From Nanobdellota archaeon (GTDB taxonomy: Archaea; Nanobdellota; Nanobdellia; Pacearchaeales; GW2011-AR1), in the NCBI GenBank assembly GCA_018815925.1, contig JAHIWS010000019.1:252-64251 (forward strand): 64,000 nucleotides of DNA. Direction: 5' to 3'. Shown one piece after another: positions 12,291-48,743 of this stretch. The position numbers and the translations under genes are program-made. The notes beneath the pieces are model-generated. The model was not told the DNA's origin and searched no databases. It saw only the letters and a list, made by a program, of their open reading frames with translations. Each line of letters starts with the position of its first letter. Positions within the stretch are counted from its first letter, which is position 1.

Positions 12291-12331
12291 AAAAACAAAA
12301 AATTTAAAAAGAGGTGGGTACAAAAGCTACA

Positions 12332-12640
12332 ATGGAATTTTGCCCTAAATGTGGAGCTGTTCTAATTCAAAAAAGAAAAAACTATGGGTGTGCTAGATGC
12401 AATTATTCTTCAAAAGATAAAGTAAAAATAGCCACTTCTGAAAAAATAGAAGAAAAAAAGAAAATAGCAGTTATCTCAGAAAAAGACACACAAATTCTTC
12501 CTATAATTGCAGAAACATGCAAAAGATGTGGAAACAATAAAGCTTATTTCTGGACAGTTCAAACACGTTCAGGTGACGAAGCAGAAACAAAATTCTTCAA
12601 ATGCACAAAATGTGATTTTACTTGGAGAGAGTATCGTTAA
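12332..12640 (+). CDS. tfs: Transcription factor S (TFS / RpoM-like)
   Basis: MEFCPKCG...CARC N-terminal Zn ribbon. C-terminal CKRCG...QTRSGDEAETKFFKCTKC with the acidic loop. The track start 12314 is GTG, so ATG 12332 is preferred. Confidence 0.85.
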   Translation: MEFCPKCGAVLIQKRKNYGCARCNYSSKDKVKIATSEKIEEKKKIAVISEKDTQILPIIAETCKRCGNNKAYFWTVQTRSGDEAETKFFKCTKCDFTWREYR

Positions 12641-13419
12641 TCTTTCTCCTTAAACAAACTAGTAAAATCAGTATCTTTTTCCTCTTCATGTTCTTCTGGA
12701 GGCATATTTGAATTAGGACAATCAAAAGGATGCCAAGAATCATTTCCAAGAGCCATATCAATCAAAATCCACCTGCCATCCTTAGCTTTGCAAAAGTCAA
12801 CACCCCAATAACCATAAACATTCTGGGAAACTTTTTTAGAATATTGTGTCAAAAGATTAACTTCTTCTCCTTCATAATTCATTTTAGATACAATAGCTTT
12901 CCAATTTTCTGGAAGTAATGTAGAAAGAGTTCCTTTTTCAACAGCTTTTTCAATCCAATAAGCATGATGACATAAAAGTTTTCCATCTTCCACAAAATAT
13001 CTCCTCTCAGGATTAACAGGCATTTCTCCAGAAAAAGCATTAAATCCAGTATCCATAGGAATAAATTCTCTAACAACAATAGCTTCTAAAGGCAATCCTA
13101 AAAAATCTGCAAGCTTATTATGTATAACAAGTTCAGCAAGATGGTTTTTCAATTCACTAAAATTATTAAGATAACAAGTATCCTTCCAAGAATGTTTAGC
13201 TGAAAGTTCATCTGTTCTTAAAAAAACAGGTAAAGAAAATTTAGATTCAATCAAATGTCGAACTTCTCTTTCTATCCTATCTAAATTAAAAAAATCTCCC
13301 TCCCCTTCATAATATTCCTTTTTTTCATTATCATTTAATCTAATAATTTCTGTTCTAGGAATAGGAATCTCCAAATTCTTAATTTTAGGAAACCAATATA
13401 ATAAACTATTTTTATCCAT
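12637..13419 (-). CDS. ATP-grasp-like protein (phage-type R2K-like family, tentative)
   Basis: 260 aa. N-terminal YWFPKIKNLEIPIPRTEI, FLRTDELSAKHSWKD, VVREFI, PERRYFVEDGK, WGVDFCKAKDGRWILIDMA resemble the ATP-grasp pattern common in phage proteins (from memory). Confidence 0.4.
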   Translation of the reverse strand: MDKNSLLYWFPKIKNLEIPIPRTEIIRLNDNEKKEYYEGEGDFFNLDRIEREVRHLIESKFSLPVFLRTDELSAKHSWKDTCYLNNFSELKNHLAELVIHNKLADFLGLPLEAIVVREFIPMDTGFNAFSGEMPVNPERRYFVEDGKLLCHHAYWIEKAVEKGTLSTLLPENWKAIVSKMNYEGEEVNLLTQYSKKVSQNVYGYWGVDFCKAKDGRWILIDMALGNDSWHPFDCPNSNMPPEEHEEEKDTDFTSLFKEKD

Positions 13420-13475: not shown

Positions 13476-13608
13476 TGGCCCTGGAGGGATTTGAACCCCC
13501 GACACCCGGATAACTCTAGACTAGAATCAATAGATTCTGTCGAAGCCCGCGAATTAAAATTCACGTCCTTAAGAGTCCGGCGCTCTAACCAGGCTGAGCT
13601 ACAGAGCC
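13476..13608 (-). tRNA. tRNA-Lys(CUU) with a 58-nt intron at canonical position 37/38
   Basis: Acceptor GGCTCTG/CAGGGCC. D arm GCTC-AGCCTGGTTA-GAGC. Anticodon stem CCGGA/TCCGG, loop CT-CTT-AA. T arm GGGGG-TTCAAAT-CCCTC, discriminator A, no encoded CCA. A T-run follows the 3' end. Confidence 0.9.
13512..13569 (-). other. tRNA-Lys intron (bulge-helix-bulge)
   Basis: Central 4-bp helix CTCT/AGAG flanked by 3-nt bulges (TAA on the 5' side, TTA on the 3' side) and outer helix GGAC/GTCT. Internal hairpin GAATC-TATT-GATTC. Confidence 0.75.
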
Positions 13609-13626
13609 ACTTGTTTTTGTTAAGGC
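13584..13626 (-). repeat. 43-bp direct repeat, copy 1 (tRNA-Lys nt 1-25 plus 18 nt upstream)
   Basis: Identical to 13654-13696 at every position on character-by-character comparison. Confidence 0.95.
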
Positions 13627-13653
13627 CAAGCTCATCATGGTTTAACTTTAGAT

Positions 13654-13696
13654 TCTAACCAGGCTGAGCTACAGAGCCACTTGTTTTTGTTAAGGC
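13654..13696 (-). repeat. 43-bp direct repeat, copy 2 (orphan tRNA-Lys 5' fragment with native upstream context)
   Basis: Perfect copy 70 bp upstream of copy 1. The 27-nt spacer 13627-13653 is unrelated to the sequence following copy 2. Confidence 0.95.
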
Positions 13697-13796
13697 AAAA
13701 ACATAAAATAACTAGAAATAATTTATTTAAAAACATATCCTCAGCTACTCCCAGCCACAATTATTAAAACTAATTCAGGGGCGGTAGTTTAAAAAA

Positions 13797-47453: not shown

Positions 47454-48743
47454 TTACAAATTCTGAATTTCTACTAAAGCTCCAGATTCATTTGCATCAA
47501 GAACTGTTATTACCATTTTGTTGTATTCATCTGTGTAGTTCTGGTTTTTTTCAAGATAAACATACATATTTTCAATTGGGGCTCCATAATCAGTATATAT
47601 AATTGAGTTTTTTGGATGCATATTTAGTAAAACCGTGTACCATCCACTTGTTTGTTCATCTTCAATATAATTACCAAATCTTATAAACACCCCTTTAGTG
47701 GGTTGAAAACCACTTTGGTTTATTAATTTGTATTCAAGGAAATAGTGTGAAAAAAATTCTATGGCTATCTCAGGAAATTCCGCTTCGCCCCATTTTTTAG
47801 GTATCATAAGTCCTTTAATCTCAGATTTGTTTTGGAATTGAGAATTAATTGGAGTAATCCAATAAGTTCCTTTTGTAACTTCAGGAACATTGTTTTTTTC
47901 AAGCCACCCTAAAATTAATTTATTTCTAATGTTATAGTGTTCTTTTGAAGCGCTACCCATTGGATCATAGTGCTCCTCTGAAACAAAATTACAGTTGTTG
48001 CCTATTGTAACTTTGTTTCCCTCATTGTCATTACAATCTAACATATAAGCATGATTCAATCCTAAATTATGCCCAATTTCATGTGCTAATATGTTTGAGC
48101 TAGGGGGTGAAAATGGTTTTTCTGGAGTTTTAGTTTTAGGAAAGCCAACAAAAGAAAGCTGAATTTTTCCTTCATTAGTATTATATTCTAGTCTTCCAAT
48201 AGTTCCATGGGGTCTACAATTCCAAAAAGGATTTTCTGTGTTTTTTTCAAAAATGGTGATTATTCCATAATATTCCTTAAAATCAATAAGGGGGTCTAAA
48301 AGATTGACTATATAAGAGCTCCAATGTTCTCCAACACAGGGTCCCAACTCATTTGGAATCTCATTTGAAATGATGCTAGTAACATACCAATAATTAATAT
48401 TCATTTTTCCATAAGATACCTCTGTAAAATAATCATTAGCATTATTAATAAGGTCTTCACTAAAACCTTGAGAATCAAAATCTGGGTAATCTTCTTGGAA
48501 TGCATAAACTATTGCATATTTTTTTTCTTCAAGAACTCCATTAAAATTTTCTACCTCTGTATTTTTTGTTATAATTGTTTCTGGATTAGAATTATCCTCT
48601 TTTGAATTGAAATAAAAAATAAGTCCGATAAGAAAAACCACTCCAATAATTATTAGAAATAAATAACTCTTTGGTTTTTTTTGCAACTGATTTGAAGGAA
48701 AATGTTGAAATGTTTGTCCTGGAGGGTATTTGGGATCAACCAT
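47454..48743 (-). CDS. Membrane-anchored zincin metalloprotease (M11 gametolysin-like, tentative)
   Basis: 429 aa. N-terminal TM helix (YLFLIIIGVVFLIGLIFYF), HEIGHNLGLNH (HExxHxxGxxH), downstream HYDPMG. Confidence 0.65.
   Translation of the reverse strand: MVDPKYPPGQTFQHFPSNQLQKKPKSYLFLIIIGVVFLIGLIFYFNSKEDNSNPETIITKNTEVENFNGVLEEKKYAIVYAFQEDYPDFDSQGFSEDLINNANDYFTEVSYGKMNINYWYVTSIISNEIPNELGPCVGEHWSSYIVNLLDPLIDFKEYYGIITIFEKNTENPFWNCRPHGTIGRLEYNTNEGKIQLSFVGFPKTKTPEKPFSPPSSNILAHEIGHNLGLNHAYMLDCNDNEGNKVTIGNNCNFVSEEHYDPMGSASKEHYNIRNKLILGWLEKNNVPEVTKGTYWITPINSQFQNKSEIKGLMIPKKWGEAEFPEIAIEFFSHYFLEYKLINQSGFQPTKGVFIRFGNYIEDEQTSGWYTVLLNMHPKNSIIYTDYGAPIENMYVYLEKNQNYTDEYNKMVITVLDANESGALVEIQNL

What the first reader, a model, noticed from the sequence alone, without database searches (positions are those of the whole stretch)
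13476..13696. Intron-containing tRNA-Lys(CUU) with a perfect 43-bp duplication of its 5' end and leader
Seen in sequence: the minus strand from 13608 to 13476 folds as tRNA-Lys(CUU), 75 nt of exon. A 58-nt intron (13512-13569) sits at the canonical 37/38 site. It can be drawn as helix-bulge-helix-bulge-helix: central CTCT/AGAG, 3-nt bulges TAA and TTA, outer GGAC/GTCT.

Separately, tRNA nt 1-25 plus the 18 nt upstream (13584-13626) recur without a mismatch at 13654-13696. The 27 nt between the copies (plus strand caagctcatcatggtttaactttagat) do not match the sequence beyond copy 2. This is therefore not a simple tandem duplication.

The distal orphan copy keeps the AT-rich TATA-like context (minus strand ...TTATTTTATGTTTT-GCC...). 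The functional gene is now preceded by the spacer.

Inference, with three options: (i) an att-like footprint of an integrase event at the tRNA, with the element almost completely deleted; (ii) transcription starts at the distal copy and yields a pre-tRNA with a 70-nt leader containing a decoy 5' half that could compete for the 3' acceptor strand; (iii) an expressed tRNA 5'-fragment gene. The phage-like ATP-grasp gene abutting the tRNA 3' end (12637-13419) is compatible with past mobile-element traffic at this site.
Basis: partly seen in the sequence, partly recalled or inferred. Interest (0 to 1): 0.6.

Follow-up and report, generated by a model that had tools for sequence, protein, structure and literature searches.

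The report
Hairpin insert duplicating tRNA-Lys start
The exact repeat in front of this archaeal lysine tRNA gene marks the insertion of a tiny non-coding hairpin module that stranded the gene's old first 25 bases and left a fresh copy on the working gene; the same layout recurs at many tRNA genes of this DPANN family only, and I found no published description of it.

Summary
Both parts of the observation hold. There is a tRNA-Lys(CUU) gene with a 58-nt intron at 37/38 in a strict bulge-helix-bulge motif. An exact 43-nt direct repeat (18-nt leader plus tRNA nt 1-25) lies 27 nt upstream.

The repeat is not a private accident. The layout [quoted passage not shown] occurs in 36 of 401 genomes of the same family. 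It occurs in 0 of 373 genomes from other families of the class. It affects mainly the Lys, Ile and Arg tRNA genes.

In one genus the tRNA-Lys(CUU) site is empty in three genomes and filled by at least four different inserts in others. The inserts carry the complement of their own tRNA's D-loop (40 of 48, against 26 expected).

The canonical promoter lies upstream of the stranded fragment and never inside the insert. The working tRNA is therefore most likely read through a roughly 95-nt self-folding leader that RNase P removes; the RNase P RNA is present.

No integrase, virus or plasmid link was found. There is no splicing motif for the 70-nt unit, and no sign of a split tRNA.

How the inserts arise is unresolved.

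The parts
13476..13608 (-). tRNA-Lys(CUU) gene. Exon 1 is 13608-13570, the intron is 13569-13512 and exon 2 is 13511-13476. This is the working copy.
   Evidence: Rfam RF00005, 54.6 bits. ARAGORN intron mode. Strict hBHBh' motif at 37/38.
13512..13569 (-). 58-nt intron at the canonical 37/38 site. It holds two hairpins, CGUGAAU/AUUCGCG and AGAAUC/GAUUCU.
   Evidence: The CAGAATC..GATTCT hairpin is about ten-fold enriched in the family over a reversed-pattern control.
13584..13626 (-). Proximal copy of the 43-nt repeat: the 18-nt leader (13626-13609) plus tRNA nt 1-25 (13608-13584).
   Evidence: exact repeat; unique in the genome.
13627..13653 (-). 27-nt unique core of the inserted module, ATCTAAAGTTAAACCATGATGAGCTTG. 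It consists of a degenerate mini-hairpin (ATC-TAAA-GTT) followed by a segment antisense to the tRNA 5' fragment.
   Evidence: It aligns with the modules of 18 other loci. 78.8% of the proposed pairs form, against 25-46% when the partner columns are slid.
13624..13643 (-). Antisense segment AAACCATGATGAGCTTGGCC. AACCA pairs with the D-loop UGGUU, UGAGCU with AGCUCA (nt 9-14), and GGCC with acceptor nt 1-4.
   Evidence: Fragment-to-module duplex -19.4 kcal/mol, z -3.5 against shuffles. Fold shown.
13654..13678 (-). Distal, stranded copy of tRNA nt 1-25. It breaks off inside the 3' strand of the D-stem and has no partner 3' half.
   Evidence: No complementary trailer exists elsewhere in the genome.
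13679..13696 (-). Distal copy of the 18-nt leader GCCTTAACAAAAACAAGT.
   Evidence: Duplication of the leader is unusual for single-unit loci. It is otherwise seen in loci with two or more tandem units.
13725..13733 (-). TTTTTAAAT, the nearest match to the TATA box typical of this genome's tRNA genes. It ends 46 nt upstream of the distal +1, so transcription would start about 22-24 nt before the distal fragment.
   Evidence: Consensus and spacing taken from the genome's other tRNA genes. No TATA-like heptamer lies within 40 nt of either copy. The start site is an inference.
13739..13756 (-). GGCTGGGAGTAGCTGAGG, a possible older and decayed third copy of the 5' fragment. It lies 30 nt downstream of a second TATA-like box, TTTTTTAAAC (13787-13796).
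   Evidence: The resemblance is not significant (P = 0.15 against shuffles). Listed only as a weak lead.

Best explanation
**What it is.** A small non-coding module was inserted into the tRNA-Lys(CUU) gene at the junction of D-loop and D-stem. It comprises 27 unique nt plus an 18-nt leader. The gene's first 21-25 nt now stand on both sides of it. The upstream copy is a stranded relic. The downstream copy, joined to the rest of the gene, is the working tRNA.

**Anatomy.** The module belongs to a family confined to this DPANN family (Woese-/Pacearchaeota-like Nanoarchaeota). Each unit reads: tRNA nt 1-21, a short variable hairpin, an imperfect reverse complement of nt 21-1, then 7-30 nt of leader, then the full tRNA.

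**How it most likely works now (inferred).** Transcription starts at the promoter upstream of the relic. As soon as it is made, the relic pairs with the module's antisense segment into a closed hairpin. This keeps the relic from competing for the 3' acceptor strand. RNase P then cuts at the proximal +1 and discards a leader of roughly 95 nt. The canonical intron is removed by the splicing endonuclease as usual.

**How it most likely arose (inferred, less certain).** I favour recombinational insertion or homing of a pre-existing module that pairs with, or carries, the target's 5' segment, so that the paired segment ends up duplicated. I do not favour a large element that was later deleted, nor a one-off replication error.
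For: **Shown**
- The repeat and the gene are real.
- The same architecture is found in 36 of 401 family genomes (23 of 191 genera). The reversed-pattern control gives 0. It is found in 0 of 373 genomes of other families of the class.
- In 49 collected units the duplication runs from +1 (give or take 2 nt) to nt 22-26, so the insertion point is constant.
- In genus g7 the tRNA-Lys(CUU) site is empty in three genomes and carries at least four different inserts in others. One module type sits in both Lys genes of one genome. Near-identical hairpins sit at three different tRNA genes of G006. The modules therefore spread.
- Fragment-to-module pairing has a mean z of -2.5 against shuffles.
- 40 of 48 modules hold the exact complement of their own D-loop variant, against 26 +/- 2.3 after permutation. 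The acceptor-specific match gives p = 0.008. The pairing register is supported.
- Distal fragments differ from their working copy at acceptor positions in at least 7 loci, so they are relics.
- A TATA-like box lies at canonical distance from the distal +1 in 21 of 42 loci and from the proximal +1 in 0 of 42.
- RNase P RNA is present at 124 bits.
- This genome holds further gene-end duplications around small inserts: at tRNA-Thr, Ala, His and Arg, at an initiator-like tRNA, and at one protein gene.

**Inferred**
- The transcription start, co-transcriptional sequestration of the relic, RNase P cleavage, and the mode of insertion.
Against: - In this genome neither copy has a canonical TATA box at the usual 22-24 nt. 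The nearest box ends 46 nt from the distal +1, so the promoter argument is borrowed from relatives.
- The leader hairpin on its own is not significantly more stable than shuffles (z -1.4).
- Thermodynamically the relic can still capture the 3' acceptor strand: -75.3 against -74.3 kcal/mol.
- The 27-mer has no second copy in this genome. No same-genus relative or independent assembly was found, so no empty site exists for this particular locus.
- The 18-nt duplicated leader does not fit the usual +1 boundary.
- No enzyme can be named, and tyrosine-recombinase counts do not correlate with the modules.
- The collected set is biased towards young copies, because the search pattern required GTAGCTCAGNNNGG to be intact in both copies.
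- Reads could not be inspected.
Confidence: 0.6

Rival explanations
1. Classical integrase footprint. A virus or plasmid integrated into the 5' part of tRNA-Lys through a 43-bp att site, and later lost all but 27 nt by deletion.
For: Direct repeats of a tRNA gene end are the known signature of archaeal integrative elements: 44-bp repeats around elements of 9-23 kb (PMC9897764), and a tRNA-Thr fragment beside a 1.8-kb recombinase-bearing insert (PMC3293823). This genome has five PF00589 matches, one of them just downstream of tRNA-Leu(UAA) on contig C9. A roughly 320-nt insert with a small ORF sits between 23-nt repeats at tRNA-Arg.
Against: Dozens of independent loci would all have had to be trimmed to 30-70 nt while keeping the same hairpin-plus-antisense anatomy. 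No integrase lies near the locus, and integrase number does not rise with the modules. No viral contig carries the module beside a tRNA fragment. The insertion point is fixed at the end of the D-loop. As I recall from Williams 2002 (cited in PMC9897764), integrases usually cross over in the anticodon or T loop; I did not check this here.
Confidence: 0.1
2. Local replication or repair error. The replication fork stalls at the D-arm hairpin and switches template twice. It first copies the 5' fragment backwards and then forwards again, giving a duplication-inversion-duplication scar. The scar is neutral and is later copied between similar tRNA genes by gene conversion.
For: The unit is essentially an imperfect palindrome of tRNA nt 1-21 followed by a direct copy, which is what two template switches produce. 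The antisense segment matches each locus's own D-loop and acceptor. Tandem arrays of up to five extra units exist. No enzyme or donor was found.
Against: tRNA D-arms are universal, yet the architecture is absent from 373 genomes of sister families with similar small AT-rich genomes. Near-identical hairpins and leaders occur at different tRNA genes of one genome (G006, G280, G353). The antisense of G233 fits the module consensus (TCTGG type) better than its own tRNA (CCTGG), seen by direct reading. Insertion boundaries are specific to each module type: after nt 21, nt 12 or nt 14.
Confidence: 0.15
3. A selected regulatory leader. The spare 5' strand and its antisense form a switch between two folds that tunes maturation of tRNA-Lys, for example in response to temperature or a protein factor.
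For: The two global folds differ by only 1 kcal/mol. Pairing is kept with some compensatory changes. The architecture persists in many genera.
Against: Close relatives do well with empty sites. Distal fragments decay. Only 3 of 17 inspected tRNA-Lys(CUU) loci in relatives carry the module. Module sequences and lengths vary widely.
Confidence: 0.08
4. Assembly artefact or chimera of two strain variants.
For: The genome is a metagenome-assembled draft of 29 contigs, 88% complete. Reads could not be examined.
Against: The 43-nt repeat with a 70-nt period is shorter than a read and than the final k-mer sizes of common assemblers (my own knowledge). The locus lies in the interior of a 64-kb contig. 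The same architecture appears in 36 other assemblies, some of only 1-10 contigs.
Confidence: 0.03
5. The 70-nt unit is a non-canonical D-arm intron, or the distal fragment is one piece of a split tRNA.
For: The same genome does splice a D-loop intron in its initiator-like tRNA. The lineage carries many introns.
Against: No pair of cuts 70 nt apart lies in a bulge-helix-bulge motif. The best candidate has an all-G-U 'helix' and 1-bp flanks, whereas the scan recovers both true introns. tRNA-Lys(UUU) is intact elsewhere. Nothing else in the genome is complementary to the spacer.
Confidence: 0.03

Closest known systems
Partial tRNA-gene duplications (attL/attR) left by integrase-mediated insertion of archaeal viruses, plasmids and genomic islands (SSV1 and pNOB8 types; PYG1 in Pyrococcus yayanosii, PMC9897764)
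   Same: Foreign DNA sits inside a tRNA gene. A direct repeat of about 40 nt of the gene end flanks it. One copy completes a working gene and the other is a dead fragment.
   Different: The insert is 27-70 nt of non-coding hairpin instead of 9-23 kb with an integrase. The 5' end is duplicated, with a fixed break at the end of the D-loop. The insert holds an antisense copy of the duplicated segment. The inserts can form tandem arrays. No recombinase or extrachromosomal form is known.
tRNA-Thr(GGU) locus heterogeneity in Caldiarchaeum subterraneum and the model of tRNA gene disruption by mobile elements (Sugahara et al. 2012, PMC3293823)
   Same: A 5' tRNA fragment lies upstream of an intact gene of the same tRNA. 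Variants occur within one lineage. The authors propose a link between insertion, stray fragments and intron gain.
   Different: There the insert is 1.8 kb and encodes a recombinase. Here it is tens of nucleotides, with no coding capacity and a conserved self-pairing design.
Non-canonical archaeal tRNA introns and their transposition between tRNA genes (Thermoproteales; reviewed in PMC4090602)
   Same: Short non-coding inserts at non-anticodon positions of tRNA genes. Related sequences sit in different tRNA genes of one genome. The same genome has a true D-loop intron that begins like this module.
   Different: Those inserts are removed by the splicing endonuclease at a bulge-helix-bulge motif and duplicate nothing. 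This unit has no such motif and is bypassed by a duplicated gene start.
MITEs and other small palindromic repeats of prokaryotes
   Same: Tens of nucleotides long, non-coding and hairpin-forming. Many copies per lineage, flanked by direct repeats of the target.
   Different: The flanking repeat is 21-43 nt and variable, instead of a fixed 2-10 bp. There are no terminal inverted repeats. The internal inverted segment matches the target, not the other end of the element. The target is one defined position in tRNA genes.

Membership tests
Archaeal intron-containing tRNA (canonical 37/38 intron) | Cloverleaf recognised by a tRNA covariance model, with the anticodon in place | tested here: met
   RF00005 at 54.6 bits, full-length match 1-71. 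Anticodon CTT.
Archaeal intron-containing tRNA (canonical 37/38 intron) | Helix-bulge-helix-bulge-helix motif, with both cuts between the 2nd and 3rd nt of the 3-nt bulges | tested here: met
   Top hit of the motif scan: central 4 bp, outer 5 bp, inner 4 bp, product CUCUUA|AUCCGG. The constrained fold gives -23.1 kcal/mol.
Archaeal intron-containing tRNA (canonical 37/38 intron) | Splicing endonuclease and ligase encoded in the genome | not tested
   Not searched. Splicing capacity is implied by the 20 or more intron-bearing tRNA genes in the genome.
Integrase-type att duplication at a tRNA gene | Direct repeat of a tRNA gene end on both sides of the inserted DNA | tested here: met
   43-nt exact repeat.
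Integrase-type att duplication at a tRNA gene | An element with an integrase, or its remains, between or beside the repeats | tested here: not met
   Only 27 nt lie between the copies. The neighbours are an ATP-grasp protein, a winged-helix protein, a phosphoesterase, TopA and TFS. There are no PHROG hits.
Integrase-type att duplication at a tRNA gene | An extrachromosomal or viral form carrying the attP sequence | tested here: not met
   None of the 103 module-core hits in IMG/VR lies next to a tRNA fragment. The collections are incomplete for DPANN viruses.
MITE / transposon with target-site duplication | Terminal inverted repeats and a target duplication of fixed length | tested here: not met
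   The duplications range from 13 to 43 nt across loci. The inverted segment matches the target, not the other end of the insert.
MITE / transposon with target-site duplication | Several related copies at different sites | tested here: inconclusive
   The 27-mer is single-copy in its own genome. Related modules occur at several tRNA genes in other genomes of the family.
Non-canonical (D-arm) BHB intron | A bulge-helix-bulge motif at cuts whose joining restores the tRNA | tested here: not met
   The best pair of cuts 70 nt apart has only G-U pairs in the central helix and 1-bp flanks. The scan recovers the canonical intron and the initiator-tRNA D-loop intron as positive controls.
Split or tri-split tRNA | A missing isoacceptor, plus a complementary leader or trailer at a second locus | tested here: not met
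   tRNA-Lys(UUU) is intact on C28. No second site matches the spacer on either strand with up to 4 mismatches.
Simple tandem duplication | The whole unit, spacer included, repeated head to tail | tested here: not met
   The spacer occurs once, and the flanks of the two copies differ.
Box C/D guide RNA in the leader | C box (RUGAUGA) and D box (CUGA) brought together by a terminal stem | tested here: not met
   The spacer has AUGAUGA, but no D box or closing stem (read directly). In relatives the same position reads CUGAGCU or GAUGAGCU, which is explained by complementarity to AGCUCAG.
Hairpin modules that duplicate gene ends in DPANN archaea (a class known only from this scan's earlier notes) | Stranded gene-end copy, hairpin, antisense of that end, then the intact gene, recurring at several genes and genomes | tested here: met
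   for the 5' type. for the 3' type and for a protein-gene case in this genome.

The most novel reading that the evidence does not exclude
These modules may be an undescribed kind of miniature, gene-less insertion element that homes to tRNA genes by base pairing. On this reading the antisense segment acts as a built-in guide, and the stretch it pairs with (nt 1-21) is exactly what gets duplicated. Depending on how much of the gene start is copied, the outcome would be either a harmless self-folding leader, as at tRNA-Lys, or a new non-canonical intron. The 36-nt D-loop intron of the initiator-like tRNA in the same genome could be an example of the second outcome. It begins like this module and carries a 7-nt copy of its own upstream exon. 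If so, the modules would show one concrete route by which archaeal tRNA introns arrive.
Probability: 0.2. Interest if true: 0.85.

Novelty: new variant of a known kind. Interest (0 to 1): 0.62.

Why it matters
Partial tRNA genes are normally read as scars of large integrated elements. Here the same logic, insertion plus a replacement gene end, operates at a scale of tens of nucleotides. It recurs in one DPANN lineage and has a conserved self-pairing design.

If the modules are mobile, they are among the smallest insertion units known, and they show a way to land in an essential gene without killing it.

They also bear on an open question, how archaeal tRNA introns arrive. A 2026 census of Asgard tRNA introns concluded that the route "remains open" (bioRxiv 10.64898/2026.10.13.758758). 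In this genome a similar sequence serves as a leader insert in one tRNA gene and as a spliced D-loop intron in another.

There is also a practical point. tRNA finders miss or mislabel such loci. ARAGORN in default mode missed this gene, and in intron mode it missed the initiator-like tRNA.

Tried and rejected
- **Split tRNA-Lys(UUU) sharing the 5' fragment.** Rejected. The UUU gene is intact; ARAGORN mislabels it 'Stop(tta)'.
- **BHB intron for the 70-nt unit.** Rejected. My first scan used the wrong motif geometry and failed its positive control. It was redone correctly.
- **C/D-box or hammerhead motifs in the spacer.** The GAUGAG and CUGAG words are explained by complementarity to AGCUCAG.
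- **A third, decayed upstream copy at 13739-13756.** Not significant (P = 0.15).
- **Independent assemblies of this locus.** Exact searches for the leader-tRNA junction and for an intron piece found nothing in metagenome contigs or genome contigs. No same-genus genome is held.
- **Viral or plasmid donors.** The hits in IMG/VR are chance matches, pentapeptide-repeat genes or adjacent phage tRNA genes.
- **Link to tyrosine recombinases.** None. The mean is 1.6 copies per genome in 36 module-bearing genomes and 2.2 in 36 module-free genomes. Other enzyme families were not tested.
- **Shared hairpin between the module and the intron (CAGAATC..GATTCT).** The hairpin is enriched in the family, roughly 160 matches against 13 in the control. 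About a quarter of 30 sampled sites lie in or near tRNA genes and most are elsewhere, so it is a generic repeat and not a specific link.
- **Own-versus-foreign duplex energies over the whole D region.** Only a weak signal (p = 0.04). The direct test on D-loop variants was much clearer.
Full report
**1. The observation**

The minus strand 13608..13476 is a tRNA gene. The Rfam tRNA model matches it end to end at 54.6 bits. ARAGORN misses it in default mode but in intron mode calls tRNA-Lys, anticodon CTT, with a 58-nt intron.

The cuts give CUCUUA|AUCCGG. The strict form folds at -23.1 kcal/mol, against -28.0 for the free fold, which keeps the central helix and the 3' bulge.

The direct repeat 13584-13626 / 13654-13696 is exact over 43 nt. 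It consists of an 18-nt leader plus tRNA nt 1-25. Both the repeat and the 27-nt spacer are found nowhere else in the genome, even with four mismatches allowed. The spacer is not repeated beyond the distal copy.

**2. The organism**

The window lies in a 930-kb, 28.5% G+C draft genome of 29 contigs. Most of its tRNA genes carry introns. It has an archaeal RNase P RNA at 124 bits.

The nearest public relatives of a window protein are MAGs labelled Woesearchaeota, Pacearchaeota or Nanoarchaeota. It is therefore a DPANN archaeon. No genome of the same genus is held.

**3. The repeat is a recurrent architecture**

- **First examples.** Among the tRNA-Lys(CUU) loci of relatives, two other genera showed the same layout with different sequences.
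- **Family-wide count.** I searched for two tRNA D-arm starts 49-79 nt apart. This hit 36 of 401 genomes of the family (23 of 191 genera), and the reversed pattern hit none.
- **Outside the family.** The same search across the phylum hit only family members: 0 of 373 genomes from more than 100 other families. For comparison, 7 of 73 high-quality genomes inside the family were hit.
- **The collected units.** I gathered 49 units. About two thirds sit at tRNA-Lys (both isoacceptors), a quarter at tRNA-Ile and a few at tRNA-Arg. ARAGORN mislabels several intron-bearing genes.
- **Boundaries.** In almost all units the duplicated piece runs from the first tRNA nucleotide (give or take 2 nt) to nt 22-26. 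The break therefore always lies at the end of the D-loop.
- **Tandem arrays.** Some loci hold tandem arrays, up to five extra units with a 63-nt period in G347.
- **Longer duplications.** Leader duplication occurs mainly in loci with two or more full units. The 18-nt duplicated leader of this window is therefore somewhat atypical. It hints at a former second unit or a secondary rearrangement. A candidate older copy at 13739-13756 is not statistically supported.

**4. Anatomy of the insert**

After the stranded fragment comes a short hairpin of variable sequence. In the type to which this window belongs it is AGC-TAAA-GCT. Here it is degenerate, ATC-TAAA-GTT.

Next comes a segment that is an imperfect reverse complement of the fragment: AACCA opposite UGGUU, (C)UGAGCU opposite AGCUCA(G), and often RGCC opposite acceptor nt 1-4. 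Then come 7-30 nt of leader and the full gene.

- The pairing is real. Fragment-to-module duplexes are on average 2.5 SD more stable than with shuffled modules. For this window the duplex is -19.4 kcal/mol, z -3.5.
- On an alignment of 19 units, 78.8% of the proposed pairs form, against 25-46% when the partner columns are slid.
- The pairing is tuned to each locus. 40 of 48 modules contain the exact complement of their own D-loop variant (AACC with GGUU, GACC with GGUC, AGCC with GGCU, AUCC with GGAU). Random reassignment of modules gives 26 +/- 2.3, and no permutation in 5,000 reached 40.
- The tail of the module also fits its own acceptor better than foreign ones (p = 0.008).

**5. The inserts come and go**

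In genus g7 the tRNA-Lys(CUU) site is empty in three genomes. In G006, G280, G389 and G423 it carries different inserts. One of these loci holds two nested events. In G280 a different module, about 90 nt long, is inserted after nt 12 and is also present in that genome's tRNA-Lys(UUU) gene.

G006 has nearly the same hairpin at three different tRNA genes, each with an antisense segment adjusted to that gene. G353 has the same hairpin, antisense and leader at two Lys genes with different acceptor stems.

Several stranded fragments differ from their working copy at acceptor positions, so they decay. Taken together, the module sequences spread between sites. They are not generated from scratch at each site, and the upstream fragment is a relic.

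**6. How the locus is expressed (inference)**

In relatives a TATA-like heptamer ends 18-28 nt upstream of the stranded fragment in 21 of 42 single-unit loci. It never does so upstream of the working copy, and no such heptamer lies anywhere within the last 40 nt before the working copy. The working tRNA must therefore be transcribed through the relic and the module.

In this window the best TATA match (TTTTTAAAT, 13725-13733) ends 46 nt before the distal +1. The genome's other tRNA genes have 22-24 nt there. This predicts a start about 22-24 nt upstream of the relic and a leader of roughly 95 nt.

The first 55 nt of relic plus module fold into one hairpin that also ties up acceptor nt 1-4. For the whole precursor, the fold in which the relic takes the 3' acceptor strand gives -75.3 kcal/mol. 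The correct fold, with the relic closed on its antisense, gives -74.3.

The most economical reading is that the antisense segment neutralises the decoy during transcription and that RNase P then removes the leader.

**7. What it is not**

- **Not a D-arm intron.** No pair of cuts that would restore the tRNA lies in a bulge-helix-bulge motif, while the scan recovers two true introns.
- **Not part of a split tRNA**.
- **Not a classical integrated element.** There is no integrase nearby and no PHROG hit in the neighbours. Tyrosine recombinases are not more numerous in module-bearing genomes. No viral contig carries the module.
- **The neighbouring ATP-grasp gene** is an R2K-clade enzyme (PF14243) and gives no hint of mobile DNA.

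**8. Origin**

Three facts argue for spread of pre-formed modules, by homing, recombination or an unknown enzyme, and against independent replication errors:
- the restriction to one lineage;
- insertion boundaries that are specific to each module type;
- shared hairpins and leaders at different genes of one genome.

The locus-specific antisense can be read in two ways. Either pairing with the target is needed for insertion, or the segment is copied from the target during the event. I cannot decide between these, and no enzyme is identified. The template-switch alternative therefore keeps appreciable weight.

**9. Context in this genome**

Small inserts flanked by duplicated gene ends are common here.
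- tRNA-Thr and tRNA-Ala each have an 18-nt duplication of the 3' end around inserts that share the module TTGGTTTGTGTTTCAAA..GAAATACAGG. The break lies in the T-loop.
- tRNA-His has a 13-nt duplication.
- tRNA-Arg(UCU) has a 23-nt duplication around about 320 nt holding a small ORF.
- One protein gene end is duplicated around two palindromic units.

An initiator-like tRNA(CAU) on contig C9 was missed by ARAGORN. It has the same 3' module and also a 36-nt insert in its D-loop. My motif scan places that insert in a relaxed bulge-helix-bulge. Its removal reproduces exactly the uninterrupted sequence found in five relatives. This intron begins ATCTGCTAAAGTT, and the Lys module begins ATCTAAAGTT. 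The intron also carries a 7-nt copy of its own upstream exon. The link to intron origin is suggestive and not demonstrated.

**10. Comparison with what is known**

The closest described cases are att-site duplications at tRNA genes (PMC9897764) and the Caldiarchaeum tRNA-Thr fragment model (PMC3293823). Both involve kilobase-scale elements that encode recombinases. Three full-text searches found no description of the miniature, self-pairing form.

Earlier notes of this scan describe the same kind of structure in other DPANN genomes and at other loci of this genome. I used them as leads and re-derived the relevant facts independently.

**Verdict.** The structure is real. It is a member of a lineage-specific family of hairpin inserts that duplicate the start of tRNA genes. 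Its present role is most likely that of a tolerated, self-neutralising leader. How it is generated remains open.

Noticed in passing
own genome contig C9:48465-48619, minus strand (outside the window; locus L274/L275): An initiator-like tRNA(CAU) that ARAGORN does not call. It has a 36-nt intron in the D-loop between G15 and U16, lying in a relaxed bulge-helix-bulge, and a second intron at the anticodon loop. Removing the D-loop insert reproduces exactly the uninterrupted orthologues of five relatives. The intron starts like the tRNA-Lys module and holds a 7-nt copy of exon nt 7-13.
   Followed up: partly
own genome C14:70168-70243 (tRNA-Thr), C26:2676-2782 (tRNA-Ala), C9 about 48380-48470, C17 about 1660: A second module family sits at the 3' ends of tRNA genes. 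The last 18 nt of the gene (from C56 in the T-loop) are duplicated around inserts of 64-85 nt. These inserts share GAAC(C/T)TTGGTTTGTGTTTCAAA..GAAATRCAGG and begin with an antisense of the T-arm. Similar 'GGATTTGAAC..' trailers follow tRNA-Lys genes in relatives.
   Followed up: partly
own genome C4:45357-45449 and about 320 nt downstream: tRNA-Arg(UCU), which ARAGORN calls 'SeC'. Its last 12 nt plus 11 nt of trailer (CTGTCGGGGGCATGTTTTTTATT) are repeated about 320 nt downstream. Between the repeats lies a roughly 60-aa hydrophobic ORF. This is a mid-sized member of the same insertion logic.
   Followed up: no
own genome C4:111573-111675: The 15-mer TTATTCCTTCAACCC, at the end of a protein gene, is duplicated around two tandem 37-nt units, each centred on GACATATGTC. 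The site lies just upstream of the tRNA-Asn promoter.
   Followed up: partly
window 13519-13537, minus strand; own genome C4:111450, C18:28922; 83 of 401 family genomes: The hairpin CAGAATC-N3-5-GATTCT is about ten-fold over-represented in the family relative to the reversed pattern. G006 has about 18 matches and G148 about 15. Two of the three copies in this genome lie in tRNA introns (Lys and Asn). About a quarter of 30 sampled sites lie in or within 200 nt of a tRNA gene.
   Followed up: partly
own genome C9:32861-33346, next to tRNA-Leu(UAA) at C9:33896-34029: An integrase-like gene of about 392 aa (PF00589, 34 bits) starts a few hundred nt downstream of tRNA-Leu(UAA), which lacks a canonical promoter. 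No repeat of the tRNA 3' end was found on the contig. The genome has five PF00589 matches in all.
   Followed up: partly
own genome C28:56135 (tRNA-His) and C13:49530 (tRNA-Leu CAA), upstream regions: These two unrelated tRNA genes share an upstream block of about 45 nt (cctaatttaaaggaaag.ttgataa..aaa..ttggtt..cTTTATA) that ends in a TATA box only 1-2 nt before the tRNA start.
   Followed up: no
window 12314-12640 (+) and relatives L005, L007, L012, L014, L020: In several relatives the transcription factor S (TFIIS-type zinc ribbon) gene ends just upstream of tRNA-Lys(CUU) on the same strand. In this window TFS and the tRNA are on opposite strands, with the ATP-grasp gene between them. This points to a local rearrangement.
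   Followed up: no
own genome C28:33278-33399: ARAGORN in intron mode labels the intact intron-bearing tRNA-Lys(UUU) as 'tRNA-Stop(tta)'. It mislabels several intron-bearing Lys and Ile genes of relatives as Ser, Glu, Ala or Stop.
   Followed up: yes
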